NCBI GenBank assembly: GCA_963701965.1
Contig: OY969695.1
Coordinates: forward strand, 3,392,001-3,456,000
Reading direction: 5' to 3'
Origin: an uncultured Gemmatimonadales bacterium
GTDB lineage: Bacteria; Gemmatimonadota; Gemmatimonadetes; Gemmatimonadales; Gemmatimonadaceae
DNA: 64,000 nt
Positions 6,783 through 53,823 of this stretch are shown piece after piece (position 1 is the stretch's first letter; the number at the start of each line of letters is the position of its first letter). A model generated the notes under the pieces. It had not been told where the DNA came from, did no database searches, and was given only the letters and a program-made list of their open reading frames with translations. The position numbers and the translations under genes are program-made.

Positions 6783-9002
6783 ATGCCCATCCGGCCGTCA
6801 TACCGCGCGGCGGGAGCAGCCGCGTGCGCCCTCTTCGCGCTGTACGTGGCGACTTTGCTCCCGTCGACCGCGATGTGGGACACGAGCGAGTACCTGACGG
6901 CGGCCCACGTGCTCGGGATCCCGCACCCGCCGGGGAACCCGTTCTTCGTCCTCATCGGCCACGTCTTCTCCCTGCTGCCCGTCGCGCCCACCATCGCGCA
7001 ACGCGTCAACCTGATGGCCGCGCTCACCAGCGCACTCTCGGCCGGCGCCTGGTTTCTGGTCACCGAACGCGTCCTCGCGCACTGGCTGCCGAAACCGTGG
7101 CAACGGCTGGCCGGCGCCACCGTGGCGGTCCTTGTCGGCGGCACGGCTTTCACGGTCTGGAGCCAATCCGTCGTCAACGAAAAGGTCTACACGGTCTCAC
7201 TCCTGTTCTTCGCGATCGTCGCCTGGCTCGTCATCCTGTGGTCGGACGACCCGGATGCCCCAGGCGCCGAGCGACTCCTCGTCCTCAGCGTTTTCCTGAT
7301 CGCCCTCGGCTACACCAACCACCCCGCGGGCTTCCTCGTCGCTCCTGCCGTCGCGGTCGCGATCCTCGCCCGCCGCGCGCGCCTGCTCGTCGATCCCCGC
7401 TTCCTCGGCAAATGCGCCGCCGTGTTCGCGCTCGGCCTCACGCCTTTTCTGTTCGAGCCCATCCGCGCCGGCAACCTCCCGGCGCTCAACGAAGGCGAAA
7501 CGACGGCCTGCACGACCCACTTCGCGTGGAACTGCACGCTGACGCCTGAGACCTGGGACCGGTTCCGCGACCAAGTCACGCGCAAACAATACGGCGGCCA
7601 TGAGCTCGTGGAGCGGCAAGCGCCGTTCACCGGCCAGATCGCGATGTACTGGATGTACTTCAAGTGGCAGTGGATGCGCGACGTCACTGGCGCGCACCCC
7701 GGACTCCAGAGCGGCCTCGCCGCGCTCTTCCTGATGCTCGCGCTTCTCGGCGGCTACGCGCACTGGCGACACGACCGGGCCAGCTTCTGGTTTTTCGGGT
7801 CACTCGTGTTCACCGTGACGCTGGCGCTCGTCTACTATCTCAACTTCAAGTACGGCTACTCCCAGGACCCGTCGCTCGGCGAACGCGAAGTCCGCGACCG
7901 CGACTATTTCTACCTGTGGAGCTTCAGCGCGATGAGCGTCTGGATCGCGCTCGGCCTCGTCACACTATGGGAAACCTGTGCAACGCTCCGCGTTGCCAGG
8001 TCCCCAGTCGGTTGGACAGATCTCGGCTCCGCCCAGATCCTGGGCGCCGGTCGCCGTTGGCTCGCGGCTTCGCCGGTGCTGCTCCTCGCCGGCGTGCCGT
8101 TCGTCGCCAACTTCCACGCTGCCCCGCGCGCCGAGCAGGTCGTCACCCGCGATGTCGCCATCGACCTCCTGAACTCGGTGGAACCCTACGGCATTCTGGT
8201 CACCGGCGGCGACAATGATCTCTTCCCGCTCTGGTACGCCCAGGAGGTAGAAGGCGTCCGGCGCGACGTGCTGTGCGTCACCACGTCGCTGCTCGGCACC
8301 GAGTGGTACGCCGGGCAGCTGCTCCGGCGTCCGGTGTACCCGTACGACGCGGCGCACGGACCCGCGGCCTATCGCGGCCGCCTGTGGCCCAAGCCCACCC
8401 GGCCGCTGTTCACGATGTCGCTTGCCGACACCCGACACGTGCCGGACTTCGTGCCGCTGGCCCAGGCGGTGACGTTCCACAAGCCCGGCACCGCCCTCGT
8501 CGCCACGGTGGATCCGAAACGATTGCCATTCGGCGGCCTGACCCGCGCCAATGTGTTCGTGCTGCACATGATCGCCGACGGCAGCGAACGGCCCGTCTAC
8601 ATCAGCACGACCTATGGGAACTACGGATCGACGCTGGGCTTGGACTCGCATCTCCTCACGCAGGGGTTCGCTCGCAAGGTCGTCGACGACACGCCCGTCG
8701 CCACGCGCGACACGGTCATGGTGCCCAGCGACGGATGGATGGACACCAGCCGCTCCAACGCGCTGTGGCGCGAGGCGCGCGGACCGGCGACGATCGTCCG
8801 GCATACCGGCTGGAGCGATCCCGCGTCGGTGGGCATGCCGTTGCTCTACGTGTTCCGTGGCTACGCGCTGGCCGAGGCCCTGTCAGTCCGGCACGAGCCT
8901 GGCGACGACCAGCAGGTCAACGCCGTCATGCAACAGCTTCATGGTATGGCCAACGCCCTGGGCGCGAACGATCTGTTTTCTCCACGGGCCAGCAGTCGCT
9001 GA
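6783..9002 (+). CDS. DUF2723 / TMEM260-like membrane glycosyltransferase
   Basis: WDTSEY..LGIPHPPGNPFF, EVRDRDYFY, GDNDLFPLWYAQEVEGVRRDV, many transmembrane segments. Confidence 0.85.
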   Translation: MPIRPSYRAAGAAACALFALYVATLLPSTAMWDTSEYLTAAHVLGIPHPPGNPFFVLIGHVFSLLPVAPTIAQRVNLMAALTSALSAGAWFLVTERVLAHWLPKPWQRLAGATVAVLVGGTAFTVWSQSVVNEKVYTVSLLFFAIVAWLVILWSDDPDAPGAERLLVLSVFLIALGYTNHPAGFLVAPAVAVAILARRARLLVDPRFLGKCAAVFALGLTPFLFEPIRAGNLPALNEGETTACTTHFAWNCTLTPETWDRFRDQVTRKQYGGHELVERQAPFTGQIAMYWMYFKWQWMRDVTGAHPGLQSGLAALFLMLALLGGYAHWRHDRASFWFFGSLVFTVTLALVYYLNFKYGYSQDPSLGEREVRDRDYFYLWSFSAMSVWIALGLVTLWETCATLRVARSPVGWTDLGSAQILGAGRRWLAASPVLLLAGVPFVANFHAAPRAEQVVTRDVAIDLLNSVEPYGILVTGGDNDLFPLWYAQEVEGVRRDVLCVTTSLLGTEWYAGQLLRRPVYPYDAAHGPAAYRGRLWPKPTRPLFTMSLADTRHVPDFVPLAQAVTFHKPGTALVATVDPKRLPFGGLTRANVFVLHMIADGSERPVYISTTYGNYGSTLGLDSHLLTQGFARKVVDDTPVATRDTVMVPSDGWMDTSRSNALWREARGPATIVRHTGWSDPASVGMPLLYVFRGYALAEALSVRHEPGDDQQVNAVMQQLHGMANALGANDLFSPRASSR
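7973..8039 (+). repeat. Two-hairpin palindromic element, in-frame copy inside DUF2723 gene
   Basis: ACCTGTGCAACGCTCCGCGTTGCCAGGTCCCCAGTCGGTTGGACAGATCTCGGCTCCGCCCAGATC aligns with the unit of the 15070-15600 array. Confidence 0.85.
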
Positions 9003-9049
9003 CAGTCGAGCTTGCTCCGACGGGCCCCGGCGTGTTAACAAGCACGCCC

Positions 9050-9844
9050 ATGAAAACATCTCTTCGAGCCATCGCGCTACTCCTGATCGCGAGCGCCCCG
9101 GTGCGCGCGCAATCCGATCTCGCCAAAGAGGGCGTCGTCCTCGACTTGCACGGCCATTACGCCGAGGCACGCGCCGATTTCCAGAAGGTGCTCGACGCGG
9201 CGCCAGATTCGACCAAGTCCCGGGCGCGACGGACGCTGGCGGTCTCGTACGCGTTCACCTGCGACATCCCGCACGTCAAACAGTACGAGCACCAGGTGAT
9301 TGACCCGCAGATGACCGCGGGGAACTACCTCGCGGCGGCCGACGTCGACAACGAGTTGGCGCGCATCCTCCTCGAGTGCGGCGACCTGAATGGCGCCTTG
9401 GAGACGTACCGGGCGGGTCACGACGCCGCCCTCCGCGCGCCGGCGCTGTCCGACACCGCCCGCGATCTGTGGAACTTCCGGTGGGAGCACGCCCAAGCGC
9501 GCATCGCCGCGCGCCGCGGGAACAAGGCGGACGCCGCCCAGCACGTCGCGCAGGCCAAGGCCATTCTCGACAAGGGCACGAACCCGGACCAGAAGCGCTT
9601 CTATCCCTATCTCACGGGCTACGTCGCCCTTTATACCGGCGACTATCCCACGGCGATCGCCGATCTCCAGCAGGCGGATCAACACGATCCCTTTATTCTC
9701 GTCTTGCTCGCCCAGGCCTACGAGAAATCGGGCGACAAAGCCCAGGCCATCACGTACTATCGCAAAGCGCTGGAAAGCGATGCGCACAACCCACCGAACG
9801 CGTTCGCCCGCCCGCTGGCCAAGCGCAAGGTGGCCGCGACCTAA
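9050..9844 (+). CDS. Secreted tetratricopeptide-repeat protein
   Basis: Signal peptide MKTSLRAIALLLIASAPVRA; TPR-like helices (LAQAYEKSGDKAQAITYYRKAL). Confidence 0.8.
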   Translation: MKTSLRAIALLLIASAPVRAQSDLAKEGVVLDLHGHYAEARADFQKVLDAAPDSTKSRARRTLAVSYAFTCDIPHVKQYEHQVIDPQMTAGNYLAAADVDNELARILLECGDLNGALETYRAGHDAALRAPALSDTARDLWNFRWEHAQARIAARRGNKADAAQHVAQAKAILDKGTNPDQKRFYPYLTGYVALYTGDYPTAIADLQQADQHDPFILVLLAQAYEKSGDKAQAITYYRKALESDAHNPPNAFARPLAKRKVAAT

Positions 9845-9884
9845 CGGTCTTGCGTTGGGGCGTGACGCGCGATAAAACATCAGT

Positions 9885-10415: not shown

Positions 10416-10436
10416 AGGCTGCCAGAGACGGCAGCA

Positions 10437-10844: not shown

Positions 10845-10912
10845 AGCGGCGTAGCAGGCCTCCCCCCGGGGAAACGAAAAAAGCGACGCTGATCGGCGCC
10901 GCCCCAACCCTC

Positions 10913-14269: not shown

Positions 14270-15004
14270 TCAGCGGCTGATCGTGCCCCAGAGGCCGATC
14301 TTGGCGTTGCCGCCGGCGGTCAACATCGATGTCGGCAGCTCGACGACGATCGACAGCACGTTGTGGCCGGCGACGAAATCGACGCCCGGGTTGCGGAAGC
14401 TCGTCGCTGACGGCGTGTTCGGGAGTTGCGACAACGTGCCGGTGACGGGTTTCCGGTCGGGCAGAATGCGGAAGAATTGCTCGAGGTCGATGAAGAACGG
14501 GTCGCTGCGCGGGCCGGCAAAGAGTTGGATGCCGGACGCGGTGCCCAAGACCGTGTTGACCTTGCCGGTCAGGACGGGCGTGCCGGTCGAGATCGTGTTC
14601 TGCATCGCGCCGACGACCGGCGGTTTGATCGGGCCCCACAGTGAGACCGTCTGGTTGGCGCCGGTGCCGCTGAACGTCACCTGCATCACCAGGTCTTCCT
14701 TGGCGTCGCCGGTGTTGTCGATCTTGAACTGGTACAGGAGGTTGGGATCGAACGATGTGCTCGCCGTCGAAGCCGGCGTCAGGAACGCCCAGCTGTCGAG
14801 GACGAGCGCGATCCGTCCGGCGGCCGAGCCGGGGAACGCGTAGAAGTCGGTCATGTCTGTCGCCGGGTTGAGCTCGACGTCAGGGCTGTCCTGATGGTCG
14901 GAGCCAAGCGCGTGGCGTGTGGCGAGCCCGCCGGCGACGAGGGCGACGAGCAGGCCAGCCGTGAGCAGGCGTGGCCGGGAAAGCAACGTACGGGCGTAGC
15001 GCAT
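14270..15004 (-). CDS. DUF4331 family secreted protein
   Basis: SDHQDSP, DMTDFYAF, YQFKIDNTGD, FAGPRSDPFFID, NVLSIVVELP. Confidence 0.8.
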   Translation of the reverse strand: MRYARTLLSRPRLLTAGLLVALVAGGLATRHALGSDHQDSPDVELNPATDMTDFYAFPGSAAGRIALVLDSWAFLTPASTASTSFDPNLLYQFKIDNTGDAKEDLVMQVTFSGTGANQTVSLWGPIKPPVVGAMQNTISTGTPVLTGKVNTVLGTASGIQLFAGPRSDPFFIDLEQFFRILPDRKPVTGTLSQLPNTPSATSFRNPGVDFVAGHNVLSIVVELPTSMLTAGGNAKIGLWGTISR

Positions 15005-15069
15005 TGCCGCCTCCGTGGAAGAGCGCTGTGGTCTGGTATGCGCCCTACCTACGCCGCTCATCGCACCGC

Positions 15070-15600
15070 GGATCTGTGCGATGCTTCGCATTGCCAGATC
15101 CGTCGTCGGTTGGACAGATCTCGGCTGCGCCGAGATCCCGCGATGCTTCACGTCGCCAGATCCGTCGTCGGTTGGACAGATCTCGGCTGCGCCGAGATCC
15201 CGCGATGCTTCACGTCGCCAGATCCGTCGTCGGTTGGACAGATCTGGGCTGCGCCGAGATCCCGCGATGCTTCACGTCGCCAGATCCGTCGTCGGTTGGA
15301 CAGATCTCGGCTGCGCCGAGATCCCGCGATGCTTCACGTCGCCAGATCCGTCGTCGGTTGGACAGATCTGGGCTGCGCCGAGATCCCGCGATGCTTCACG
15401 TCGCCAGATCCGTCGTCGGTTGGACAGATCTGGGCTGCGCCGAGATCCCGCGCCGCTTCACGTCGCCAGGATCCGTCGTCGGGTTGGACAGATCTCGGCT
15501 GCGCCGAGATCCCGCGATGCTTCACGTCGCCAGATCACGCGTCCGTTGGACCTATCCCAACTCCGCCGAGATCTCGCAATGCGAAGCGTTGCTGAGATCC
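15070..15600 (+). repeat. Tandem array of a 62-bp palindromic unit (7 near-identical copies, 1 degenerate copy, partial flanks)
   Basis: Unit GCCAGATCCGTCGTCGGTTGGACAGATCTSGGCTGCGCCGAGATCCCGCGATGCTTCACGTC starts at 15093, 15155, 15217, 15279, 15341, 15403, 15465 (64 bp) and 15529 (degenerate). No variable spacers. Confidence 0.97.
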
Positions 15601-15628
15601 GTTGGCGCGCGACCATTGTATCGAGACG

Positions 15629-16205
15629 GTGCGATTCACACTCATAGTCGCGTTCGCGACGATCCCGTGTGCGTTACGGGCCCAGGCCGCCGATAGCGCG
15701 AAGAACCATAAACTCGACACTCTTCGTGTCATGGGCCGCGCCAACGATCTGCATGGGATCGCCGGTTCGGCGTCCCAGGGGACTGTGGGCGCCGTCGATC
15801 TTCGTCTCCGCCCACTAGCACGAGAGGGCGAGTTGCTAGAGACCGTCCCGGGGATGATCGTCACCCAGCACTCGGGCCCTCGTGGGTGGCATCACCTGGA
15901 CGCCGCGACCGCGCGGTCTCTTCGCCGCCTTCCGTGTCCGCCGGTTCGGGTCCTATCCCCTGACCCAAGACATATAGTATCCGCGCCGGTTCGACCACGT
16001 TGTGCAACGCCGACGTCGGGTTCCAGTTCGCCGGGGAGTCCGTTTGCAGCTCACGATGCTCAACGTGTTCGATTCCAGGGGCGACGACATTGACTACTAC
16101 TATGTCTCGCGCCTCCCCGGCGAACCGGCGGCCGGCGTCGGCGATCAGCATTTCCATCCCGTCGAACCGCGACAGCTCCGGGTGTCGGTGGCCTGGGGAC
16201 TCTGA
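15629..16205 (+). pseudogene. TonB-dependent receptor remnant (large internal deletion plus frameshifts)
   Basis: N-terminal signal/plug ..GELLETVPGMIVTQHSG joined near 15878 to C-terminal strands ..RRFGSYPL..NVFDSRGDDIDYYYVSRLPGEP..HFHPVEPRQLRV; two further frameshifts near 15973 and 16037. Confidence 0.85.
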
Positions 16206-16244
16206 TCTGGCGGGGGAGCGGCCGTACCGTTATGGTGCTGCCAA

Positions 16245-18002
16245 ATGCGTACCCTCGCGACTCTCTCGACGATCGCCCTGTGCGCCGCGCCCCTCGCCGC
16301 GCAGAGCACCGGTTTCCGCGTGCTCGTCACGATGCCGGCCTCCGCGGCCACCCGGCCGCACAATGGCCGCCTCTTGCTGCTCCTGTCCAAGGACAGCACC
16401 GCCGAACCGCGGTTTCAGATCACCTATCACGACGATACGCAGGAAGAGTTCGGGATCGACGTGCACGGCTTGAGCGCGACGCATCCCGGGGTGTTCGATG
16501 CGCGCGTGCTCGGGTACCCCGTCGCCAGCCTTTCGCACGTGCCCGCCGGCGACTACTGGGTGCAGGCCGTCCTCCATCCCTACGAAGTCTTTCATCGCGC
16601 CGATGGCCACACCGTCGAGCTCCCGCCCGATCGTGGCGAGGGCCAACGCTGGGAGCGCGCGCCCGGATCGCCCATGAGCCGGCCCGTGCGCGTGCACATC
16701 GATCCGCGCACCAGCGGTGTCGTGCGCGTCGTGCTCGATACGGTGATCCCGCCGCTGCCCGAGACGAAGGACACGAAATACGTCAAGTACGTCCGCATCC
16801 AAAGTGAGCGCCTGACCAAGTTCTGGGGCCGGCCGACCTACCTGGGTGCGATTCTGCTCCTGCCGGAAGGCTTCGACACGCATCCCGACGCCCACTACCC
16901 GCTGGCGGTCTACCAGGGACACTTCCAACGCGCCGTCTCCGGTTGGCGCGAGACGCCACCCGACACGACGCTGCCGGTGCCCGACACCGCGCGCATCGCC
17001 CACGATTGCCCGAACGGGGGCGAGATGGAGCACTGCGATCGCCGGGCCATTCAGCGGTTGCGGGAGGAAGAGGGATACGCGTTCTACCGGCAGTGGACCG
17101 GCCCCGGATTTCCGCGCCTGATCATGGTCACCATCCAACACGCCAATCCGTACTACGACGATTCGTACGCCGTGAACTCGGAAAACGTCGGCCCCTACGG
17201 CGACGCGATCACCTACGAACTGATCCCCTACATCGAGCAACACTATCGCGGGCTCGGCCCCTGGGCCCGCGCGTTATACGGCGGGTCGACCGGAGGCTGG
17301 GAGGCCTTGGGTGTCCAGGTGTTCTATCCCGACCAGTACAACGGCAGCTGGGCCTTCTGTCCCGATCCGGTCGATTTTCACGCCTACACCAACATCGACA
17401 TTTACCACGACAAGAACGCCTACTATACGGAAGGCTTCTGGCGGCGCACGTTCCGGCCCGGCGAGCGCACCTACCTCGGTGACATGCTGTCCACCGTCCA
17501 AGACCAGAACATGACGGAGCTGGTCAGGGGCACGCACACGCGGTCCGGTGAGCAGTGGGACATCTGGGAGGCCGTCTTTTCGCCCGTGGGCCCCGACGGC
17601 TATCCCCGCCGCATTTGGGACAAGCGCACCGGAGTCATCGACACCAGCGTCGCGGCCTACTGGCGCGAGCACTACGATCTCGTCCACATCATGCAGCGGG
17701 ACTGGGCGACGCTGGGACCGAAACTGCAAGGCAAGTTGCACATCTACGCGGGACTCTCCGACAGTTGGATGCTCAACGATGCCGTCTATCTGGCCCAGGA
17801 TTTCCTGCAGTCGGCGCAGAACCCGCGCGCCGATGCCGTCGTCGAGTACGGGGCGCGGGACGAGCATTGCTGGACCGGCGACCACGACCATCCCAACACG
17901 ATCGCCGGCGGCACCGTGAATCAACGGTTCATCCCGCAGATGGTGAAGCGCTGGCTGCAGACGGCGCCTCCCGGAGCGGACACCACGAGCTGGCGGTACT
18001 GA
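16245..18002 (+). CDS. Secreted putative esterase, paralog of the gene at 2-1540
   Basis: Signal peptide, YYDDSYAVNS, GGSTGGWE, PDPVDF. Confidence 0.85.
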   Translation: MRTLATLSTIALCAAPLAAQSTGFRVLVTMPASAATRPHNGRLLLLLSKDSTAEPRFQITYHDDTQEEFGIDVHGLSATHPGVFDARVLGYPVASLSHVPAGDYWVQAVLHPYEVFHRADGHTVELPPDRGEGQRWERAPGSPMSRPVRVHIDPRTSGVVRVVLDTVIPPLPETKDTKYVKYVRIQSERLTKFWGRPTYLGAILLLPEGFDTHPDAHYPLAVYQGHFQRAVSGWRETPPDTTLPVPDTARIAHDCPNGGEMEHCDRRAIQRLREEEGYAFYRQWTGPGFPRLIMVTIQHANPYYDDSYAVNSENVGPYGDAITYELIPYIEQHYRGLGPWARALYGGSTGGWEALGVQVFYPDQYNGSWAFCPDPVDFHAYTNIDIYHDKNAYYTEGFWRRTFRPGERTYLGDMLSTVQDQNMTELVRGTHTRSGEQWDIWEAVFSPVGPDGYPRRIWDKRTGVIDTSVAAYWREHYDLVHIMQRDWATLGPKLQGKLHIYAGLSDSWMLNDAVYLAQDFLQSAQNPRADAVVEYGARDEHCWTGDHDHPNTIAGGTVNQRFIPQMVKRWLQTAPPGADTTSWRY

Positions 18003-18418
18003 TGCCCTTTCTTTTTTTGCCCCTCGCCGCCGCGATCGTGCTCGCGGCGCCGCCGGACTCCGGCATCAAGCAGACCCTCGATCAGAGCGCGGTGGCCTGG
18101 AACCACCACGACATCGAGGGCTTCATGACGTCGTACGAAAAAGCCCCCACGACACTGTACGTCGGATCGACGGGTATCGCGCGCGGGTGGGACGCGATCC
18201 GCACTCACTATCGGATGGAGTACCCGCCCGACGATGCCCACATGGGGACGCTCAGCTTCTCCGATCTCGAGGTGCATCCGCTGAGTCCCGAATACGCCAT
18301 GGCGATCGGGCGTTATCATCTCCTTCTCGCGGGTGGGAAGACCGCGACCGGCATGTTCACGTTGGTGATGCACCGGACCGCCGGCGGTTGGCGCATCGCC
18401 ATCGACCACTCGTCCTGA
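18002..18418 (+). CDS. NTF2/SnoaL-like (DUF4440/YybH) protein
   Basis: AWNHHDIEGFM..RGWDAI..GWRIAIDHSS; ATG overlaps the upstream TGA. Confidence 0.85.
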   Translation: MPFLFLPLAAAIVLAAPPDSGIKQTLDQSAVAWNHHDIEGFMTSYEKAPTTLYVGSTGIARGWDAIRTHYRMEYPPDDAHMGTLSFSDLEVHPLSPEYAMAIGRYHLLLAGGKTATGMFTLVMHRTAGGWRIAIDHSS

Positions 18419-18420
18419 CC

Positions 18421-19341
18421 GTGCGGCTCGCGTTCGCGCTCGCTCTCATGATTCCCGCCGTCATGACCGGTCAGACCGGCTACGTCGCCGGGTCGGACGG
18501 AGTGCAGCTGCACTACCGCGTGATGGGCCACGGTCCGGACACCGTCATCGCGATTCATGGCGGCCCGGGCGTCGATCTGGAGAGCATCGCGCCGGATTTC
18601 GCGCCGCTCACCGCGCATCACACGGTGATCTTCTACGATCAACGCGGCGCTGGTCGGTCGACGCTGCCCAAAGACACGGCGCTGCTCACCGCGGCGAAAC
18701 AGATCGACGATCTCGACGCGGTGCGGCGTCACTTCGGCCTGACCCGCGTGACGCTCATCGCCCACTCCTATGGGCCCCTGTTGGCGGCGACGTACGCGCT
18801 CGCCCATCCCGAGGCCGTGCGGCGCATGGTGTTCTTCAATCCCATTCCGCCGCGCCGCGGCGATCTCTGGCAACGCTTCAACGCCACGTTGGATCAGCGT
18901 CTCGACAGCGCGCAGCAAATAAAGATGGCGGATGCCATGCGCCACCTCGACTCGTCCACGGCGGACGTCCGTCAGGCTTGCCGCGATTTCTGGGCGATCG
19001 CGCTCCGACCCCGGCTCGCCGATCCCAATCGTTCGCTCCCGCGGCTCAAGTCGGACCTCTGCGCCTCGAATCCCGCCGGCATCCGCTATGGGCTTACGGT
19101 GACCAACCCCGTCATCATGGGCTCGTACGGCGACTGGGATCTCCGCGCCCAGCTCCGCGGGCTCGCGGTCCCGACGCTCGTCGTGCACGGCGAGGAAGAC
19201 GCCATTCCCATGGATCTCGTCGAGGAATGGACGACGAGTTTGCCCCACGCCCGGCTGCTGCGTGTGCCGCACGCCGGGCACTTCTCCTACGTCGAGCAGC
19301 CGGATCTCGTCTGGCCAGCGGTGGAAGCGTTTCTGCAGTAG
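18421..19341 (+). CDS. Alpha/beta hydrolase (proline iminopeptidase-like)
   Basis: HGGPG, YDQRGAGRS, AHSYG, GEED, AGHF. Confidence 0.88.
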   Translation: MRLAFALALMIPAVMTGQTGYVAGSDGVQLHYRVMGHGPDTVIAIHGGPGVDLESIAPDFAPLTAHHTVIFYDQRGAGRSTLPKDTALLTAAKQIDDLDAVRRHFGLTRVTLIAHSYGPLLAATYALAHPEAVRRMVFFNPIPPRRGDLWQRFNATLDQRLDSAQQIKMADAMRHLDSSTADVRQACRDFWAIALRPRLADPNRSLPRLKSDLCASNPAGIRYGLTVTNPVIMGSYGDWDLRAQLRGLAVPTLVVHGEEDAIPMDLVEEWTTSLPHARLLRVPHAGHFSYVEQPDLVWPAVEAFLQ

Positions 19342-19349
19342 AAACGAGC

Positions 19350-19431
19350 CGCCTAGAGCTCCGCGCAGCGGAGCTCAGTTCAACCGACAATGCCCTAGCG
19401 GGGGTGCGTTCTTCAGCACCCCGCTAGGGCA
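19350..19431 (-). repeat. 82-bp two-hairpin element starting at the CocE stop codon
   Basis: Reverse complement TGCCCTAGCGGGGTGCTGAAGAACGCACCCCCGCTAGGGCATTGTCGGTTGAACTGAGCTCCGCTGCGCGGAGCTCTAGGCG matches 53742-53823. Confidence 0.85.
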
Positions 19432-21223: not shown

Positions 21224-21308
21224 GGTGCCAAGTTGCGGGCTGAACCGTGTCCGCACAAGGCGCGTAGCACAAGGCGCCATAACACAAGGCGCCGTACCCG
21301 CTATTGCC

Positions 21309-34803: not shown

Positions 34804-36652
34804 ATGGTGTCGACGGCGACCACCGCGGGCGAGAAGCTGCCCCTGCGCGAGAAGATCAGAGTGCTGCGCTACTTGCCGCAGCTGCTCGGACTCGTGTGGG
34901 AAACCCATCGGTGGTACGCCACGACGATGATCGCGCTCCGCCTCCTGCGCTCCGTCGTGCCGGTCGCGTCGCTGTGGGTCGCGAAGCTGATCATCGACGC
35001 CGTGATTCAGGCGGCCGCCGGGCACGGCACGCAGCGCCTCTGGGATTACGTGGCCGCCGAGTTCGTGATCGTCCTCCTCGGCGAGGTCCTGGCCCGCGGC
35101 TCGGCGCTGGTTGAATCCCTGCTCGGCGACCTTTTCTCGAACCACATCAGCGTGCGCCTCATGGAGCACGCGGCGACGCTCGATCTGGAGCAGTTCGAGG
35201 ACCCGACGTTCTACGACCATCTGGAACGGGCCAGACAGCAGACTACCGGGCGGATTGGGCTGGTCGCCCAACTCCTCGGCCTGGGCCAGGACGCGCTGAC
35301 GCTGGTGACGCTCGGCGGGGCACTGGTCGCCTACAATCCGTGGCTCCTGCTCCTGCTGACCGTCGCCGTGTTGCCCAGCTTCGTCGGCGAGACGCATTTC
35401 GCGGCGCTCAGCTACTCGCTGCTGTGGCGCCGGACGCCGGAGCGGCGGGAGCTGGACTACCTGCGATATGTCGGGGCTAGCGACGAGACCGCGAAAGAGG
35501 TCCAGAATGTTCGGGCTGGCGTCGTGGCTCACGTCCCGGTATCGGCGCTTGTCGCGGCAATACTACGAGGAAAACGCGCGACTCTCGGTCCGCCGCGCCA
35601 TCGTCAGCGCGCTCCTGTCCGTGGTGGGCACGATCGGGTACTACGCCGCCTATGTGGTGATCTTGTTGCGGGCGGTCGCCGGGCAGCTCAGCATCGGGAC
35701 GTTGACGTTCCTGGCGGGCGCGTTCATGCGGAGCCGCGACCTGATTCAGCGCCTCCTGTTGTCGGCCAGCGACATCTACGCGCAAAGTCTCAATCTGCAG
35801 GATCTCTTCACGTTCTTTGCCATGCAGCCGACGATCGCCACCCGTCCCGGCGCGCGGCCGGTCCCGATGCCGTTTGGCACGGGGTTCGTGTTCGAGGATG
35901 TCGGCTTTCGGTATCCAGGGAGCGAGCGGTGGGCCGTCCGCCACGTGAGCTTTACGCTGCGTCCCGGCGAACGGGTGGCGCTGGTGGGCGAGAATGGCGC
36001 GGGCAAGACGACGATTACGAAGTTGATCGCGCGCCTCTATGATCCGAGCGAGGGGCGTATCCTGCTCAATGGCGTCGATCTCCGGGAGTACGATCTTTCG
36101 TCGCTCCGTCGGGCCATCGGCGTGATCTTCCAGGATTTTGTCCGCTACGACATGCGGTTCGACGAGAACATCGGCGTGGGCGAAATCGAGGCGTCGCGCA
36201 CGTATCTGGAAAACCACGGACCGGTCCCGGCGCCCATCGCCGACGCGTCGGAGCGGTCGCTGGCGGCCACGCTGCTTCCCCGGCTGGCGCAGGGGTATCG
36301 TCAAATGCTGGGCCGCCGGTTCGATCAGGGCGTCGATCTGTCTGGTGGCGAGTGGCAGAAGGTCGCGCTGGCCCGGGCCTACATGCGGACGGCGCAGCTC
36401 TTGATTCTCGATGAGCCGACGGCCGCGCTCGACGCGCGGGCCGAGTACGAGGTGTTTCTCCGGTTCTCGGAACTGATGGCGGGTCGCATGGCGGTCATCA
36501 TCTCCCACCGGTTCTCGACCGTGCGCATGGCCGACCGCATCATCGTCCTTGCGGACGGCCGGGTGGTCGAAGAAGGGTCGCACGACGAGTTGGTGGCTCG
36601 CGGGGCGCAGTACGCCGAGCTGTTCGAGATGCAGGCGTCGGGCTATCGCTAG
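34804..36652 (+). CDS. ABC transporter fused permease/ATPase; +1 frameshift near 35506
   Basis: AKEVQ-MFGL restored by removing one A from CAGAATG; GENGAGKT, LSGGEWQK, ILDEPT. Confidence 0.9.
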
Positions 36653-36709
36653 ATCGCGGCGACGCCGCGATCAGTCGAACCGACCGGCTTTAGCGGCACG
36701 AAGTGGCGC

Positions 36710-37406
36710 CTAAAGCTCAATATGAACCATCCAACCGAATAACAGCGAATAAAAAGTACCGCCAACCGCGTTGCACGCCTCGCGCGTGTGAATCGCGCTG
36801 CGTGGTCCGAACACCGGCGCCCCGTGGTCGGTCTCCGTCCAGCGCGACCGTTGGTCACGCGGCGGGATGCAGAATGTCGACGTGCTCGTGCCACTGGGCG
36901 AGACCCACGGGCACGCGCGCGTTCAAGTCGCGCTCCGACGCCGATCGCGGCGCCGTGTACATCGCCCCGACGAGCGTCCACGTGCTATCGGCGTTCTGGC
37001 GATAGAGCAGGGACGTCGGCTTGGCCGGGTCGAAGCGAAACGCCGCGTTGATGGCCCAGGCCCGCCTCGTATAGTGGTAGATGGGCTGCTTGACGTTCGG
37101 CAGAAACGGGCGGAACCCATCGGCCTCGGCGACCGCGATGTCCCGATATTTGGCCACGGCGTTGCGCAGGGTCGCCCGGATCCCGACCATGCGGGCGGAA
37201 TCCGTTGCCGTCGGCACACCGGGCGCGGTCATCCGCATGTGCAGCGCACCGGCGGCGCCTTCCATGTGCATGTCATGCATGTCGCTCATGGCCGCATCCG
37301 TCATGTGCATGTCGCTCATGGCGGAGTCCGTGGGCTCGGGCGCTTGCGCGCCCGCGGCCAGCGACCACACGAGGGCCGAGGCCAGCCCCATCGCAATCCT
37401 GCGCAT
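36710..37406 (-). CDS. Secreted hypothetical protein with Met/His-rich N-terminus; +1 frameshift near 36873
   Basis: Removing one base extends WHEHVD into ICIPPRDQ..ACNAVGGTFYSLLFGWMVHIEL*, giving a 696-nt frame. Confidence 0.75.
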
Positions 37407-40581: not shown

Positions 40582-43400
40582 GCGAGGTGGTTCCAGTTCG
40601 CCATGGCGTTGAGCACCATGGCGAACGTCCCCTGCGATTCCCACCGCCACAACGGGCGGATGCCGAACGCGACAACGTGGCCCTTGCCGACCGGTGCGTC
40701 GACAAGGGCCGCTTTGCCGACAAGCTCCGGCGCGCCGACGAGTTGTCCCGACAGCAGCAGCGAGTCAGGGCGCGGGAAATAACGCAAGATCACGCGGGCC
40801 CGCCGGGCTTCCGCTTCCCGCAAGAACGTCGAATCCACGTCCGACGTCACGGCCAGCGTGTCTCGCGGCACGACGGTCAGCACGGGATCTCCCCCGAAGT
40901 ACACGGGGAAGCTCGCGGCGTCGTCGTAGCCGTACAGGATCGGACTGCCCTTCGCCACCTCCTGCACTTTCACGATCGAGCCCTGGACCCGCAAGGCGCG
41001 GCGCTCGACCGCCTGCATCGTCGGGTTCAATCCCAACGCGACGGCGAACGCGCTCGTCGACCCCTCCGTGATCAGCAGGCCGCCGCGCTCCACGAACGCG
41101 CGCAACGCCTCGGCGCCATCCAAACCCATGCCGGGCCGGACATCGTCCGTCGCATCCCACAACCCGAGGTTGGGCGTCGCCACCGTCTTCTTCCACGGCA
41201 CCGGCGGCCCGATCATCGGCCGCCCGTTCAATAGCGACGTCATCGGCGCGCCGACGTGCGGGAACACGATGACGTCGAATTTGTCCAACGCGCCAGGCTT
41301 GTGCAGCGATTGGTCGGCGATCGACGTGAATGGCACGCCCATCTGATCGAACGCAAATCGCACCCAACCCTCGTTTTGGGTCTCGAGCCACGTATGCAAG
41401 ATCGCGATACGCGGCAGCGTGATCGCGTGCGTCCTGACGGATGGCGCCGTCGCGGTCGCGACCGCTGCCAAGCCCAGGCCCACGACATCCTGTTTGGAAC
41501 CGCCTTGTATCATGAAAGTGCCAGCAGGGTACTGCTGATCGCCAACCGTGAACGAGGTGTCGGCGACCGCGAAGCGGGCGCCAGGCACCTTCCACGGCAA
41601 CGCCGCGGCCCGCCAATCGCCGGTGTTCCGCACGACCAGCGTGGCGCCGTCGCCCGTCACGTTGCCGGCCGGGACGGCATCGCGATCCAGCGGCGTCATG
41701 GCCGCAGCCAGTACGCTGGAATCGGCAATGGGATGCGCAATGACGTGCCGCAACAAGTCCATGGTCCAGCCGGTATCGTCGTACGGCGGCGGCTCCTGGG
41801 CCCCGAACTTCTGCGAGGCCAGCAGCGTGCGCACGGTGCCGGTGTACGGCTGATCCATGCGGACGATCCAGTCGCCACGGTGCACCGTGAGCGGCTTGGG
41901 TGCCGTGGGAGGCGGCGCGCTGTCGCCCGGCAACCGCGCGACGGTGTTGGAATCGCGCGGCGCCAGGTTCGATCCGAGGTCGACGGGCCGGGGCGCGATG
42001 TGCGTCGCGAAGTCGGACGACGCGACCTGGATCTCGGCGCCCTGCGCCCGGAACAAATTGACCAGCGCCGCAGCTTCGCCTGTATGCCGCTGATCGTGGG
42101 GGATCACCCAGGCGTACGGCGCGCTGGTCTGTCCCCGGCGGATGGTCCGCTCGACTTTGGCGGCGTAGTTGGTGAGAAAGGTCTCTTTGTTGTCGGCGAC
42201 GTACTTGAGCGCGATGAGAAGTCCCGACTCTTGATAGTTGATATTGGACCGAATGCACCACTTCACGCCGTTGACCGGCGGGTTGGACCGATCCCACCGG
42301 CGGTCGGTCGCGTCATTGCCCAGGTGCACAATGTGGCAGTCGGCGCCCATCGACGTATAGGTCTCGTAGAATCGGCCGATCGAGTTGTGCAGGCTGGCCA
42401 CGGAGAGGATCGTGTAGTTCGGGGCCCATCCGTCATAGTACCCGTGAGTCCACACGCCCGGCAGCCCGCGCCGCGTGAGCTCCGTCATCTCCTGATACGC
42501 GAGCGTGTGCAGCTCATCGACCAGGATGGGGTCGAACTCGTCGTTGTACGGACCCGTGCCCGTGCTCGTGTACAGGAACGGCACCGACTCGTGGAGGTCG
42601 TGCGCGATCTGCGGGTGCCACTCCAGGAACGTCTTCACCACGTTCTGCGTGAGCTTCTGCGACACGACCATGGCGTCGCGATTGTTGTCGTGCGCCGTGT
42701 ACTTGCCCCAGTACACGAGCGGCACACCGCGCTCGCCCACCTTGAGCGCGCGCGACTCCATCATCACGTCCACGGCGCGGTCGCGCCCGTCGGTCTCCAG
42801 CACGGGCGTCATGAGCGTGATCACCCCGCGCCGGATCGCCTGCACGTGCGGGGACTCATCGACGGCCAGACGATAGGCCAACTCCATCAGCATCTCGGGA
42901 CTGCCGGTCTCCGGGGAGTGGATCGAGCCGGTCATCCAGTAGATCGGCTTCGCCTCGCGGATCAGCCGCGCGCGCTCGTCGGCGCTCAACCCCCGCGTGT
43001 CGGACAGCCGCGCGATCTTCGCCTTGTAGTCATCGAGCGCCGCAATGGTCTGCTCGTCGCTGATGGCGACGGCCAGCATCTCGCGCCCCTCGTCGCTCAT
43101 CCCGGCCGAGAAGACCTTGACCCGGGGCGACGCGGCGGCCAACGCGCGAAAGTACTTGTTGATCTCGGCCACGTGGGACAGGCGTCCGACGGTGCCTGGC
43201 ACATAGCCGAGGACTTTGAGGGGCGTTGGGACCGTGGCCGACGCCGGCAGATAGTCGACGAACTCCGTCGAGAACTTCCATTTCGGATCGGTCGGCGTGA
43301 GCTCGCGAATGGCCCGCGTGTACGCCGAGTCGATCGGCTGTTGGGCGAGGAGTGGGGTACTAGCGAGCGTGAGCAGCGCGGCGATATTATGGAGTTTCAT
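40569..43400 (-). CDS. M14 family zinc carboxypeptidase-like protein
   Basis: IHSPE, DGRD, HDNNRD, HDLHE; signal peptide. Confidence 0.88.
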   Translation of the reverse strand: MKLHNIAALLTLASTPLLAQQPIDSAYTRAIRELTPTDPKWKFSTEFVDYLPASATVPTPLKVLGYVPGTVGRLSHVAEINKYFRALAAASPRVKVFSAGMSDEGREMLAVAISDEQTIAALDDYKAKIARLSDTRGLSADERARLIREAKPIYWMTGSIHSPETGSPEMLMELAYRLAVDESPHVQAIRRGVITLMTPVLETDGRDRAVDVMMESRALKVGERGVPLVYWGKYTAHDNNRDAMVVSQKLTQNVVKTFLEWHPQIAHDLHESVPFLYTSTGTGPYNDEFDPILVDELHTLAYQEMTELTRRGLPGVWTHGYYDGWAPNYTILSVASLHNSIGRFYETYTSMGADCHIVHLGNDATDRRWDRSNPPVNGVKWCIRSNINYQESGLLIALKYVADNKETFLTNYAAKVERTIRRGQTSAPYAWVIPHDQRHTGEAAALVNLFRAQGAEIQVASSDFATHIAPRPVDLGSNLAPRDSNTVARLPGDSAPPPTAPKPLTVHRGDWIVRMDQPYTGTVRTLLASQKFGAQEPPPYDDTGWTMDLLRHVIAHPIADSSVLAAAMTPLDRDAVPAGNVTGDGATLVVRNTGDWRAAALPWKVPGARFAVADTSFTVGDQQYPAGTFMIQGGSKQDVVGLGLAAVATATAPSVRTHAITLPRIAILHTWLETQNEGWVRFAFDQMGVPFTSIADQSLHKPGALDKFDVIVFPHVGAPMTSLLNGRPMIGPPVPWKKTVATPNLGLWDATDDVRPGMGLDGAEALRAFVERGGLLITEGSTSAFAVALGLNPTMQAVERRALRVQGSIVKVQEVAKGSPILYGYDDAASFPVYFGGDPVLTVVPRDTLAVTSDVDSTFLREAEARRARVILRYFPRPDSLLLSGQLVGAPELVGKAALVDAPVGKGHVVAFGIRPLWRWESQGTFAMVLNAMANWNHLAQNP

Positions 43401-43424
43401 ACCCGACTATACGCCGTCTCGGTC

Positions 43425-44852
43425 ATGAACGCTACGCGCGTGCTTTTGGCATCGCTGGCACTGGGCCTCCTGCCCGGGTGCAGTGGGCACAGCATGCACG
43501 CTTGTGTGTTGCTGCGGATCGCCGAGATGGGCCGCTGCGGTTTCGTTCGAGTCTACGAGAACCGCGCCCGTGCCGCGGGCCGGCAGATCGATCTCCGCGT
43601 GGTTGTCCTCCGCGCCCGCGGGCGCGAGGTGCTGCCCGACCCGATCGTCTTTCTCACCGGTGGGCCGGGCCTGGGAGCCGCCGAGGACGTCCGCTTCGCC
43701 GCGCGCGCCTTTCGCGCCTTCCGGCGCTACCAGGACGTGGTCTTGGTCGACCAACGCGGGACGGGACGCTCGGCGCCGCTCGACTGCGATCTGTACGGCG
43801 GTGGCGGCCTGCAGCCGTATCTCGATCCGACATTTCCCGCGCCACGCGTGAACGCCTGTCTCCATAAGCTCGAGGGTCGCCTGGATCCCGGCGCAGCCGG
43901 GATCAGTTCAACCGACACGGGATCTCGCGACGCGGAGCGTCACCGAGATCTGACGCAGTACACGACGGCCGTGGCGATGGACGACCTGGCCCAAGTCTTG
44001 ACGACCCTGGGCTACGGACAGGCCGATATCATCGGGGTCTCCTACGGCACCCGCGCCGCGCTCGTCTTTCTGCGCCGTCACCCGGACCGAGTGCGCACGG
44101 TGACCGCCGTGAGCGTGGTCCCGCCGGGCAAGCCGATCATGCTCGCCGCGCCGCGTGCCACGGCGCGGGCGCTCGCGGCGGCGGGCGCTAGCCAGGAAAT
44201 CGACACGCTCATGGCGCGCCTCCGTCGGGCGCCGGTCAGGGTGACGCTCTGGAATTGGCGCCGCCTCCGCCGGGAGACGGTCACGATCGGCCCGCGGGGT
44301 TTCGCCGAGCGCGTGTTCTCGTTGTTCTACAGCGCGTCCAGCGGGCGTCACGTCGTGCCCCTCCTGCGTCAGGCCATCGCCGGCGACTGGACCCCGTTCG
44401 CCCGGGTGGCGCTCGCCGAGAGTCGCGCCCGCCGGAGCGACCGGAGCGTGGGCATGACGCTCTCCGTCCTCTGCGCCGAGGACGCGCCGCGCTTCGCGGG
44501 TGTAGACACGGCAGCGCTCGCGGCGCAAAGCCCCCTGGGTCTCCCCGTAGCTGGAGAGCTATTGACCGCCTGCGCCGACTGGCCGCGAGGCCCGGTCGAT
44601 AGCGCGCCCTCCGGACTGACGCCACCCGTCCTCTTCGTGTCCGGCGCGCTCGATCCGGCCACCCCTCCCGAATGGGCTGACTCCGTCTCAGCGCAGCTCC
44701 CCAACAGCGCGACGATCGTCGTCCCCGGCGCCGGTCACTCGCCGGGCAATGAGGCGACGCTCGACCGCATCGCGTCCTTCGTGCGCAGTGCCCATATTCC
44801 GGAATGCCGGACCCCAGAGTCCTGCACGAGCAGGCCGAACGCGACAAAGTAA
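43425..44852 (+). CDS. Alpha/beta hydrolase lipoprotein (TAP-like peptidase)
   Basis: LPGC lipobox, GGPG, DQRGTGRS, GVSYG, DPATP, GAGH. Confidence 0.88.
   Translation: MNATRVLLASLALGLLPGCSGHSMHACVLLRIAEMGRCGFVRVYENRARAAGRQIDLRVVVLRARGREVLPDPIVFLTGGPGLGAAEDVRFAARAFRAFRRYQDVVLVDQRGTGRSAPLDCDLYGGGGLQPYLDPTFPAPRVNACLHKLEGRLDPGAAGISSTDTGSRDAERHRDLTQYTTAVAMDDLAQVLTTLGYGQADIIGVSYGTRAALVFLRRHPDRVRTVTAVSVVPPGKPIMLAAPRATARALAAAGASQEIDTLMARLRRAPVRVTLWNWRRLRRETVTIGPRGFAERVFSLFYSASSGRHVVPLLRQAIAGDWTPFARVALAESRARRSDRSVGMTLSVLCAEDAPRFAGVDTAALAAQSPLGLPVAGELLTACADWPRGPVDSAPSGLTPPVLFVSGALDPATPPEWADSVSAQLPNSATIVVPGAGHSPGNEATLDRIASFVRSAHIPECRTPESCTSRPNATK
43884..43950 (-). repeat. Two-hairpin palindromic element, in-frame copy inside hydrolase gene
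   Basis: Reverse complement GATCTCGGTGACGCTCCGCGTCGCGAGATCCCGTGTCGGTTGAACTGATCCCGGCTGCGCCGGGATC; bounded by GATC at 43884 and 43947, 63 bp apart. Confidence 0.88.
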
Positions 44853-46065: not shown

Positions 46066-46081
46066 CGCCGCGGGCGCCGCC

Positions 46082-49197: not shown

Positions 49198-49209
49198 CCT
49201 ACATGCAGT

Positions 49210-49695: not shown

Positions 49696-49742
49696 GCTGG
49701 GACTAGGCAAACGGGCGGCGGTCGGCCACTGTACACGGCGAC

Positions 49743-50585: not shown

Positions 50586-50594
50586 TCGCGGGTG

Positions 50595-51542: not shown

Positions 51543-51650
51543 GGCGTGATCAGGTCGGAGGAACGCGCGAAGAGAGGCGATCGCCTGCGGGACGCCGCAA
51601 GTCTAGGTCGCCAACCTGTCATGCCAGTGACAAGAACCGAGGGCGCCGCC

Positions 51651-52376: not shown

Positions 52377-52447
52377 GCGTGAATTTAACCGGTCGCGGAA
52401 CGGCCGAGTGTACGCCGTCGTCCGAATCCACTAGGTTGACGCTCACG

Positions 52448-52840: not shown

Positions 52841-52914
52841 CGGTCCGGGTTGTCAGCTGATAGGCCATTACTCTACGTTGCCCTACGTTACCTCGCGGGT
52901 TACGTTCTCCAACC

Positions 52915-53748
52915 ATGAAAACACGCCTGTGGTTGGTACTTGCGAGTCTCGCTCTGTCACATGTGGCATTGGCGCAGGACAGTTTTTGGACGACCTGGGA
53001 AAAGACGGCGTCCGCAATCCAAGCGGAGCAACCGCACTGGGCCACGCCGCTCGTCACGGTGACGCCGCGGATGGAGCAGGAGTTCCGGTTCGACTACGTG
53101 TCGCGGTTCACGCCCGCCGGACTCAACACGTCGATCTACGACAACGGCAAAGGTCTCGAGCTCATCCCTTTGCTGCCGATCGAGCTGCTGATCAACCTGC
53201 CACCGTACACGGTCCATCGAAACCCAAAAGCGCCCGACGGCTGGGGCGACTGGCCACTCCTGCTCAAGGTCCGTCTCCTCTCAGCGAACGAGCAGAAGGG
53301 CAACTATCTGCTCACGCTCTTCCTCGGCGGCACGGTGCCCACCGGCGGGCATCTCAACGGCAACGGATTCGGCCTGTTCTCACCCTCGATTGCCGGCGGC
53401 AAGGGCTTTGGCGACTTCGACGTGCAAACGACGGCGGGTTTCAATATTCCGGTGACCAGCGAGCCGAAGTTTGGGCACCCATTCCTCTACAACGTCGCGC
53501 TGCAATACCACATTCCCGAGGCCTTCCTGTGGCCGGAAGTGGAGATGAACGGCACGGCGTGGCGCGACGGGACGAATCTCGGCAACAACCAGATCTTCAT
53601 TACTCCTGGTGTCGTTCTCGGGCGGTTTCCGCTCCACGCGCTCTACAATCGCTTAGGGCTCACATTCGGCGCTGGCATTCAGATCGCCGCCACGCACTTC
53701 CATCAGTATGATCACGCGTGGACGTTCACCGCGCGCATGCCGTTTTAG
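52915..53748 (+). CDS. Secreted or outer-membrane hypothetical protein
   Basis: Signal peptide, QPHWATPLVTVTPRMEQEFRFD, amphipathic strands, C-terminal Phe. Confidence 0.7.
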   Translation: MKTRLWLVLASLALSHVALAQDSFWTTWEKTASAIQAEQPHWATPLVTVTPRMEQEFRFDYVSRFTPAGLNTSIYDNGKGLELIPLLPIELLINLPPYTVHRNPKAPDGWGDWPLLLKVRLLSANEQKGNYLLTLFLGGTVPTGGHLNGNGFGLFSPSIAGGKGFGDFDVQTTAGFNIPVTSEPKFGHPFLYNVALQYHIPEAFLWPEVEMNGTAWRDGTNLGNNQIFITPGVVLGRFPLHALYNRLGLTFGAGIQIAATHFHQYDHAWTFTARMPF

Positions 53749-53823
53749 CACGGGGTGCTGAACTACGCACCCGTGCTAAAACTCGTCGGTTGAACTGAGC
53801 TCCGCTGCGCCGAGCTCTAGGCG
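53742..53823 (+). repeat. 82-bp two-hairpin element starting at the upstream gene's stop codon
   Basis: GTTTTAGCACGGGGTGCTGAACTACGCACCCGTGCTAAAACTCGTCGGTTGAACTGAGCTCCGCTGCGCCGAGCTCTAGGCG; matches 19350-19431. Confidence 0.85.

What the first reader, a model, noticed from the sequence alone, without database searches (positions are those of the whole stretch)
7973..53823. Dispersed family of two-hairpin elements with a conserved GTCGGTTGRAC linker and covarying stems (5 loci)
Seen: the architecture hairpin B - NNN GTCGGTTG(A/G)AC(A/T) - hairpin A occurs at 7973-8039 (+), 15070-15600 (+, array), 19350-19431 (-), 43884-43950 (-) and 53742-53823 (+). Stem sequence changes while pairing is mostly kept. 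Hairpin A reads GATCTCGGC-TGC-GCCGAGATC, GATCCCGGC-TGC-GCCGGGATC or GAGCTCCGC-TGC-GCGGAGCTC. Hairpin B reads GCGATGC-TTC-GCATTGC, GCAACGC-TCC-GCGTTGC or GCAATGC-GAA-GCGTTGC. Known: conserved hairpins plus a short fixed motif are how HUH (Y1) enzymes recognise REP/REPIN and IS200/IS605 ends; the reverse strand 'hairpin-AGTTCAA' resembles IS200/IS605 right ends. Inference: a non-autonomous mobile element or structured RNA mobilised in trans. No cognate enzyme is encoded in this window.
Basis: partly seen in the sequence, partly recalled or inferred. Interest (0 to 1): 0.8.

Follow-up and report, generated by a model that had tools for sequence, protein, structure and literature searches.

The report
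Hairpin repeat that copies its target
A 60-100-base double-hairpin DNA repeat sits at about 55 places in this bacterial genome, a third of them in frame inside ordinary genes, and at many sites one hairpin arm is a mirror copy of the neighbouring host DNA, which likely means it spreads by being copied into its target by an enzyme that is still unidentified.

Summary
Confirmed and extended. There are six loci in the window (36650-36719 was missed) and about 55 loci in the genome (96 model hits). The family occurs in all five same-genus Gemmatimonadaceae genomes and almost nowhere else searched. No Rfam match. Thirteen filled/empty site pairs at 88-98% identity show recent insertion. The covariation is real, but part of it is not ordinary conservation. 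The stretch between hairpin B and the linker is the reverse complement of each copy's own host flank (score 97 vs 32±6 permuted), and that flank pre-exists in empty alleles (up to 16 bases copied). Target duplications run from none to 106 bp. Loops are GCGNAGC DNA mini-hairpins on the reverse strand, pointing to single-stranded DNA. 18 of 55 loci lie inside predicted genes (pyk, hisH, lhr, ada); every one checked adds a multiple of three bases. No Y1/Y2 transposase was found in the genus, and the linker is internal, so it is not an IS200/IS605 end. Best reading: a REP/RPE-like selfish repeat inserted by target-primed copying with fold-back; enzyme unknown. This scan had not noted this family; a note on another genome describes similar host-copied stems.

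The parts
7970..8041 (+). Single copy (GATC-core subtype): hairpin B about 7974-8001, linker 8007-8017, hairpin A 8019-8039; in frame inside a TMEM260-like gene, adding 21 residues
   Evidence: four orthologs lack exactly 21 aa here; B's outer pairs match the host Thr codon on one side and its complement inside the element
6555..9002 (+). Host gene, TMEM260-like (PF11028), carrying the first copy; start codon uncertain
15068..15600 (+). Tandem array, 62-nt units, 8 linkers, closed by an extra B-type hairpin; intergenic. Internal units keep the spacer that pairs only with the first unit's flank
19354..19431 (-). Single copy (CTAG-core subtype); B's outer arm is the last codons and TAG stop of the S15 peptidase gene 19424-21280 (-), mirrored inside the element
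36650..36719 (-).
43882..43953 (-). Single copy (GATC-core) in frame inside an alpha/beta hydrolase gene on the + strand (ORF 41256-44852, likely start near 43389)
   Evidence: the loop is 81 aa here against 60, 61, 61 and 52 aa in the 4 of 7 homolog loci that could be measured
53742..53820 (+). Single copy (CTAG-core); B's outer arm contains the TAG stop (53746-53748) of ORF 52915-53748 and is mirrored before the linker
8007..8017 (+). Conserved linker (example).

Best explanation
This is a genus-restricted, non-coding mobile repeat (hairpin B - linker - hairpin A, 57-100 nt) that has inserted recently at many sites and is likely copied into new sites from a folded single-stranded DNA template by target-primed synthesis with template switching. 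Shown: copies are present or absent at orthologous sites; the arm next to the linker is the reverse complement of pre-existing host DNA in most non-type-3 copies; target duplications vary from none to 106 bp; arrays keep the first unit's host-derived spacer; copies persist at stop codons, between genes, or in frame in protein loops. Inferred steps: (1) the reverse strand, capped by GCGNAGC mini-hairpins, is released as stable ssDNA, probably by an unidentified nicking enzyme that reads the fixed linker; (2) a host 3' end anneals to it through 3-7 nt of microhomology (GATC, CTAG or GC ends) and copies hairpin B; (3) the new strand folds back and copies its own host-derived flank for about 2-16 nt; (4) it returns to the linker, copies hairpin A and re-anneals to the host at or upstream of the starting point, which makes the variable duplication; (5) the duplication lets slippage or recombination build arrays.
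For: Spacer vs own 5' flank in 27 CTAG-core loci: score 97 against 31.6±5.9 permuted (max 59 in 20,000); beyond the core 75 vs 22.8±5.1; 21 distinct 4-nt spacers in 27 (3 rows mis-anchored and scored 0 were kept). Empty alleles: in 8 of 8 non-type-3 sites the match of the inner segment to the reverse complement of the empty junction (5-16 nt) exceeds the mean for other sites (3.7-5.0), and in 3 of 8 it exceeds their maximum. Clearest cases: 16 nt of conserved coding sequence plus a ~26-bp duplication; 10 nt at a G001-only insertion; a new host-made hairpin added in front of the donor's own B. Long duplications of 41, 106, 38, 26 and 27 bp and 21 bp of a tRNA-Lys end. In 13 arrays the first unit's B is the more stable in 12, and 17 of 22 internal units examined keep its spacer unchanged; young copies keep mismatches in hairpin A. 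Both points argue against continual later repair. GNA triloops on the reverse strand in 61 of 71 three-base A loops, 0 on the forward strand, with a free middle base (C41, A9, G8, T3), against 28 of 103 background hairpins; GCGNAGC/GCGNNAGC are the stable DNA mini-hairpins, their RNA versions much weaker, and they bind SSB poorly (PMC13037366, passages).
Against: No enzyme was found. The five type-3 sites show no host-copied arm (match 4-6 nt, like background). In 5 of 8 other sites the unanchored match does not exceed the best chance match. The model needs several template switches. Folding energies do not separate the strands (reverse more stable in 46 of 78 as DNA, 36 of 78 as RNA), and G-T versus A-C mismatches are 4 to 3. 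No replichore bias (29 vs 26), on a noisy GC skew. The closest empty alleles are 88-98% identical, which leaves time for post-insertion template switches. Most G000 copies lack a direct repeat longer than chance in their outer flanks.
Confidence: 0.5

Rival explanations
1. A conventional REP/BIME-like repeat, moved by a HUH (RAYT or IS200-type TnpA) enzyme that was lost or visits on another replicon. The host-matching arm arises later, by the cell's ordinary quasipalindrome template-switch mutations.
For: Two hairpins plus linker, locus-specific tandem arrays and stop-codon overlap resemble BIMEs and REPs (PMC3333891, PMC3733652, passages). CCGA lies 5' of hairpin B on the reverse strand, like the CnGA foot of class-3 TnpA-Y1 repeats (PMC6006769 section 27). 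IS200-type elements of the same family end in GNA/GNNA-capped hairpins, one with the same inner stem as type-1 B. Template switching perfects imperfect inverted repeats in E. coli (PMC7202029 abstract).
Against: PF01797 in 0 of 6 genus genomes against 68 of 301 family genomes (tally includes unpublished G267); 0 of 29 Y1 loci flanked by the element. No GTAG foot. Internal array units and A stems stay uncorrected. Duplications up to 106 bp, and a B built wholly from host sequence, are not explained by later stem perfection.
Confidence: 0.3
2. An RNA-level element (terminator, mRNA stabiliser or small structured RNA) whose stems are kept by selection.
For: 36 of 37 extragenic loci lie between tandem or convergent genes, many at stop codons; pairing is conserved.
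Against: No Rfam hit. The array and copy-3 hairpins are not called terminator-like; 4 sites found vs 1.9±1.4 by chance in 14500-20000, one of them overlapping the end of copy 3. Both orientations occur downstream of genes (13 vs 10). Loops are DNA-type. Point mutation and selection cannot give a perfect 10-nt complement between genomes about 95-98% alike.
Confidence: 0.07
3. An RNA copied in by a reverse transcriptase (SINE-like, target-primed reverse transcription), for example by the genome's group II intron RT.
For: Variable long duplications and flank-templated junctions are features of target-primed retro-insertion (recalled). G000 has one RVT_1 gene at 246367-247911.
Against: No copy lies near the RT. 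No intron-like domains were noticed, and there is no Rfam hit in the window copies. The loops are DNA-type. RT presence in the other genomes was not tested.
Confidence: 0.07
4. A MITE moved by a DDE transposase that makes long variable duplications (IS1549/IS1634-like) or targets CTAG.
For: Type-1 copies have GATC-containing ends that can pair with each other; IS1549 and IS1634 make 8-514-bp duplications (PMC2266710, passages).
Against: The ends differ between subtypes and are partly host-derived; the conserved part is central. By eye, the ends of the five multicopy DDE elements of G000 (IS21-like, an HTH_38 transposase, Mutator/IS256, two rve) do not resemble them.
Confidence: 0.05

Closest known systems
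REP/BIME/REPIN repeats and RAYT (TnpA-REP) (PMC3333891, PMC8266576, PMC6006769; passages)
   Same: Short dispersed double hairpin with a linker; tandem arrays conserved within a locus; strand-specific folded ssDNA; 3'-end and stop-codon placement.
   Different: No GTAG foot; the two hairpins are different and carry their GNA loops on the same strand rather than being inverted copies; the linker is the invariant part; no RAYT in the genus; host-copied arm and long variable duplications.
CGTC-tagged REPs (PMC3733652; passages; its figures were not visible)
   Same: No dedicated transposase; intragenic copies, including in repair genes; type-1 hairpin A has an 8-bp stem beginning with AT.
   Different: CGTC/TGTC tag at 1 of 78 A ends; 3-nt loops, not 4-5; not head-to-head dimers; Gemmatimonadota not mentioned in the main text.
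Rickettsia palindromic elements (PMC10969869; passage)
   Same: Frequent in-frame insertion into unrelated housekeeping genes, adding a peptide.
   Different: About 63 nt rather than about 150; unrelated sequence; read mostly from one strand in two frames; free-living lineage with recent spread.
IS200/IS605 ends and class-3 TnpA-Y1 repeats (PMC6006769 section 27)
   Same: GNA-capped hairpins; hairpin followed by TTCAA/TCCAA; CCGA 5' of hairpin B.
   Different: These signals sit in the middle of the inserted unit; direct repeats at the ends; no Y1 gene.
Quasipalindrome template-switch mutation (PMC7202029; abstract and introduction)
   Same: A nascent strand folds back and copies itself, extending a stem.
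   Different: Here it recurs at one junction of a mobile element, and arrays suggest it happens once, early.

Membership tests
REP/BIME (RAYT-associated) | GTAG/GTRG tetranucleotide 5' of the hairpin foot | tested here: not met
   3 of 78 at the outer end of A, 0 of 78 at the linker side of either hairpin
REP/BIME (RAYT-associated) | Cognate RAYT gene flanked by the repeat | tested here: not met
   PF01797 0 of 6 genus genomes (67-95% complete); 0 of 29 family Y1 loci flanked
REP/BIME (RAYT-associated) | Unit of two REPs in inverted orientation | tested here: not met
   A and B differ and both carry GNA-type loops on the reverse strand
REP/BIME (RAYT-associated) | Dispersed multicopy hairpins with locus-specific tandem arrays | tested here: met
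   55 loci, 13 arrays tabulated
REP/BIME (RAYT-associated) | Strand-specific cleavage of the folded ssDNA by a HUH enzyme | not testable with these tools
   Needs an enzyme and an in vitro assay
CGTC REPs | CGTC tag, 8-9-bp stem, 4-5-nt loop, CCA tail | tested here: not met
   Tag 1 of 78; 71 of 78 A loops are 3 nt
CGTC REPs | No associated transposase; intragenic copies | tested here: met
Class-3 TnpA-Y1 repeats | CnGA foot 5' of a hairpin | tested here: inconclusive
   CnGA is part of the linker (78 of 78, true by construction), but its distance from the B stem varies
IS200/IS605 non-autonomous derivative | Left and right ends at the element's boundaries, with cleavage tetranucleotide at the junction | tested here: not met
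   In all 13 filled/empty pairs the linker is internal
IS91-family (Y2) derivative | Y2 transposase in the host | tested here: inconclusive
   PF04986 0 of 5 genomes, but the control rang nowhere; the TGRAC resemblance to IS91-family sites is recalled
MITE | Conserved terminal inverted repeats and fixed-length target duplication | tested here: not met
   Ends vary and are partly host-derived; duplications none to 106 bp
RPE-like coding palindromes | In-frame insertion in genes, absent from orthologs | tested here: met
   pyk +21 aa against 5 orthologs, TMEM260-like +21 against 4, hydrolase +20/21 against 3, hisH +44 against its nearest-length ortholog
RPE-like coding palindromes | Insert is translated in a functional protein | not testable with these tools
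   No proteomics or expression data at hand
Rfam RNA families | Match at gathering score | tested here: not met
   0 hits in the window
ISfinder-catalogued MITE/IS end | Sequence match | not testable with these tools
   ISfinder is not among the tools; plasmid BLAST gave no match for two window copies

The most novel reading that the evidence does not exclude
A class of bacterial mobile DNA that has no fixed ends: a folded ssDNA template with a conserved central nicking/return site is copied into a host 3' end, and each insertion builds one of its own hairpin arms from the target. This would be a DNA counterpart of target-primed retrotransposition and could explain how transposase-less palindromic repeats (CGTC REPs, Rickettsia elements) spread and diversify their stems.
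Probability: 0.3. Interest if true: 0.85.

Novelty: new variant of a known kind. Interest (0 to 1): 0.62.

Why it matters
How REP-like repeats spread is unresolved, above all for those with no dedicated transposase. This family leaves readable junctions in close relatives: host-copied arms, variable duplications, and 0/1/2-copy alleles. That turns the insertion mechanism into testable predictions. It also shows that covarying stems in a repeat can come from copying the target rather than from selection on an RNA. Finally, it is a current source of 21-residue loops in housekeeping and DNA-repair proteins of a free-living lineage.

Tried and rejected
Enzyme searches that found nothing: Y1 PF01797; Y2 PF04986 (control silent); DUF559 (one weak hit inside a 1644-aa frame in G000, 0 of 4 relatives); GIY-YIG (hits only in long frames or weak, their flanks not scanned for the repeat); recalled HUH, Rep_trans and IS110 motif scans of G000 (no convincing candidate; nine weak IS110/Rep_trans-like motif hits were not followed); Pfam/NCBIfam of genes next to copies (housekeeping or unnamed genes, no transposase). 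The whole proteome was not scanned.

Viral collection: 2 hits without the two hairpins for the main pattern and 0 for two subtype patterns. Metagenome scan: 3 hits, 2 identical to copies in G002 and G004. Plasmid BLAST: none for two window copies, only short weak hits for subtype 4. Sequencing runs: none was listed, so no read-level test was possible.

Ada/AlkA empty-site alignment failed at 44-46% identity, and the L044 site could not be aligned. Strand choice by folding energy or G-T counts was uninformative. Pairing of the bases flanking the linker is weak (27 of 78 vs 18.7±3.4). Replichore bias was not seen. Frame-length contrast in arrays (5 of 5 in genes vs 3 of 8 outside are multiples of three) is not significant (p=0.075). 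Integron attC and IS5/IS1182-end resemblances (both recalled) were dropped: the only TGCTGAAAAA-type matches in G000 are the element itself. An assembly artefact is rejected because copies recur in independently assembled genomes, with shared and private insertions. Literature searches found no description of this family or of host-copied arms in a bacterial repeat; the library lacks most subscription papers. L207 (unpublished G267) was left out.
Full report
OBSERVATION. The linker has 13 matches at up to one mismatch, against 3.25±1.87 expected. A sixth copy lies at 36650-36719 (-). The array holds 8 linkers at 62-nt spacing. Rfam gives nothing.

CENSUS AND RANGE. The window is G000:C1:3392001-3456000. 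The genome has 71 exact linkers. I set aside 5 of them by eye as lacking hairpins and added 14 divergent copies, giving 55 loci. A covariance model from 56 copies finds 96 hits at E<=0.05 among 150 scored candidates; its training copies match by construction. Further divergent members turned up in a tRNA cluster and in a 66-nt array at about 2,249,750, so 55 is a floor. A linker-plus-stem pattern occurs in 5 of 5 same-genus genomes and 0 of 35 others. Across GTDB it gave 38 hits; by eye the two-hairpin form appeared only in records titled Gemmatimonadaceae or Gemmatimonadales. The model over 149 family genomes hit G001 (22), G005 (12) and one genome of another genus, G023 (3, with a variant linker); only 32 candidates were scored per genome. 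There are four subtypes: GATC-core, CTAG-core, three-hairpin (type 3), and a form with a G-run hairpin in place of A.

STRUCTURE. In 56 copies, 85% of cells pair and 20 of 23 pairs show two-sided changes; 0 of 500 shuffles reach this. On the reverse strand, hairpin A is capped by exactly GCGNAGC in 59 of 78 loci. Among 71 three-base loops, 61 are GNA on the reverse strand and none on the forward strand, with the middle base free; background hairpins show this loop in 28 of 103. PMC13037366 (passages) names GCGNAGC and GCGNNAGC as unusually stable DNA mini-hairpins that are far weaker as RNA, bind SSB poorly and occur at ssDNA phage origins. I infer that the reverse strand acts as folded ssDNA. 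Folding energies and wobble counts did not separate the strands, and the copies are not independent.

MOBILITY. G001, G003 and G004 are close enough for base-level comparison. Thirteen sites are filled in one genome and empty in another, with inserts of 57-100 nt at 88-98% flank identity. One further site could not be aligned. One site has 0, 1 and 2 copies in G004, G001 and G003. The linker is internal in every case. End duplications range from none or 3-7 nt to 26-41 bp and once 106 bp. The long ones are mostly in the G-run subtype and were read from filled alleles, except the 26-bp case, which has empty alleles. Most G000 copies show no outer-flank repeat above chance.

HOST-COPIED ARM. The bases between B's conserved core and the linker differ from site to site and complement that site's own 5' flank. 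In 27 CTAG-core loci the score is 97 against 31.6±5.9 when flanks are permuted. Empty alleles show that the flank was there first. At L151:1336, 16 nt of coding sequence conserved in G001 and G004 reappear reverse-complemented in the insert. At a G001-only site 10 nt do so. At L033 a host-made hairpin precedes the donor's own B. An unanchored test puts 8 of 8 non-type-3 sites above the mean of other sites but only 3 of 8 above their maximum; the 5 type-3 sites are at background. In arrays, the first unit's B is more stable in 12 of 13, and 17 of 22 internal units examined keep its spacer although their own neighbour no longer matches. The copying therefore precedes array growth and is not constantly repeated. 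This favours templating at or soon after insertion but does not prove it, since quasipalindrome template switching (PMC7202029, abstract) could act early.

GENES. By a rough gene caller, 18 of 55 loci are inside genes, 13 between convergent genes, 23 between tandem genes and 1 between divergent genes. Host genes include pyk, hisH, lhr, ada/alkA, ogt, virD4, a PIG-L deacetylase and an SNF2 helicase; a four-unit array also lies in imuB, upstream of a frameshift. Orthologs lack the insert: pyk 21 aa, the window's TMEM260-like gene 21 aa (its paralogs have a different loop there), the window's hydrolase 20-21 aa. In 16 of 18 cases the mRNA reads the GNA strand (p=0.014 against a 0.6 expectation from open frames); imuB is a third exception. 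CTAG-core copies often overlap TAG stops, and 450 of 1914 CTAG sites in the genome are predicted stops. Selection against disruptive insertions is the simplest reading.

ENZYME. None was found. None of 29 Y1 loci examined carries the element. Y2, DUF559, GIY-YIG, motif scans and neighbour scans were negative or inconclusive. The multicopy ISs of G000 are DDE types with unrelated ends.

MECHANISM AND RIVALS. I commit to target-primed copy-in from the folded reverse strand with one fold-back on the host flank (0.5). The order of segments fits this: only the forward strand, grown from the host side, can make the inverted copy after the host sequence it copies. The main rival is a lost or visiting HUH enzyme plus later template switching (0.3). 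RNA function (0.07), RT-driven insertion (0.07) and a DDE MITE (0.05) fit less well.

COMPARISON AND NOVELTY. It works like REP/BIME repeats and Rickettsia coding palindromes but fails the defining tests for GTAG REPs, CGTC REPs, IS200/IS605 derivatives and MITEs (see Membership tests). I read passages of PMC3733652 (figures and supplements not seen, so its consensus tables could not be compared), PMC6006769 (passages, section 27, and searches of its supplementary files, which showed no family with this linker in the rows returned), PMC3333891, PMC8266576, PMC10969869 and PMC2266710. Searches found no account of this family. This scan's index has no note on this genome or this sequence; an unchecked note on another genome (e1-989700) reports stems partly copied from neighbouring sequence in an unrelated family. 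Verdict: a real, apparently undescribed family, a new variant of a known kind with an unusual junction signature; interest 0.62.

Noticed in passing
window 53828-55846 (+): Formate dehydrogenase alpha subunit appears as two ORFs (53828-54172 and 54257-55846); possibly a selenocysteine TGA read-through.
   Followed up: no
G000:C1:2274400-2275400 (L222): imuB carries four 63-nt copies in frame and then shifts frame; a real pseudogene or an assembly indel.
   Followed up: partly
L221:7893-8190 (G000 tRNA-Lys/Arg/Pro cluster beside the rRNA operon): Two G-run-subtype copies, one with a 21-bp duplication of the tRNA-Lys 3' end and one whose B arm mirrors the tRNA-Arg end.
   Followed up: partly
L234/L263/L264 (site overlapping a stop/start junction, read as infB-rbfA from recall): 0, 1 and 2 copies in three relatives; the duplication repeats the overlapping stop/start signal, so translational coupling may be preserved.
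   Followed up: partly
G000:C1:246367-247911: One reverse transcriptase gene (RVT_1), group II intron-like by motif.
   Followed up: no
G000, several sites: Multicopy DDE insertion sequences: IS21-like (5 copies), an HTH_38 transposase (3), Mutator/IS256 (2), two rve types.
   Followed up: partly
L236, L240, L244 (G023): A sister repeat in another genus with a 10-nt variant linker and the same two-hairpin layout.
   Followed up: partly
G000 whole genome: Cumulative GC skew has several turning points, and copies are unevenly spread, densest at about 2.3-3.5 Mb (KS p=0.007).
   Followed up: no
G000 in-gene copies: Several hosts are DNA repair or helicase genes (lhr, ada/alkA, ogt, imuB, SNF2), as PMC3733652 notes for intragenic REPs; enrichment not tested.
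   Followed up: no
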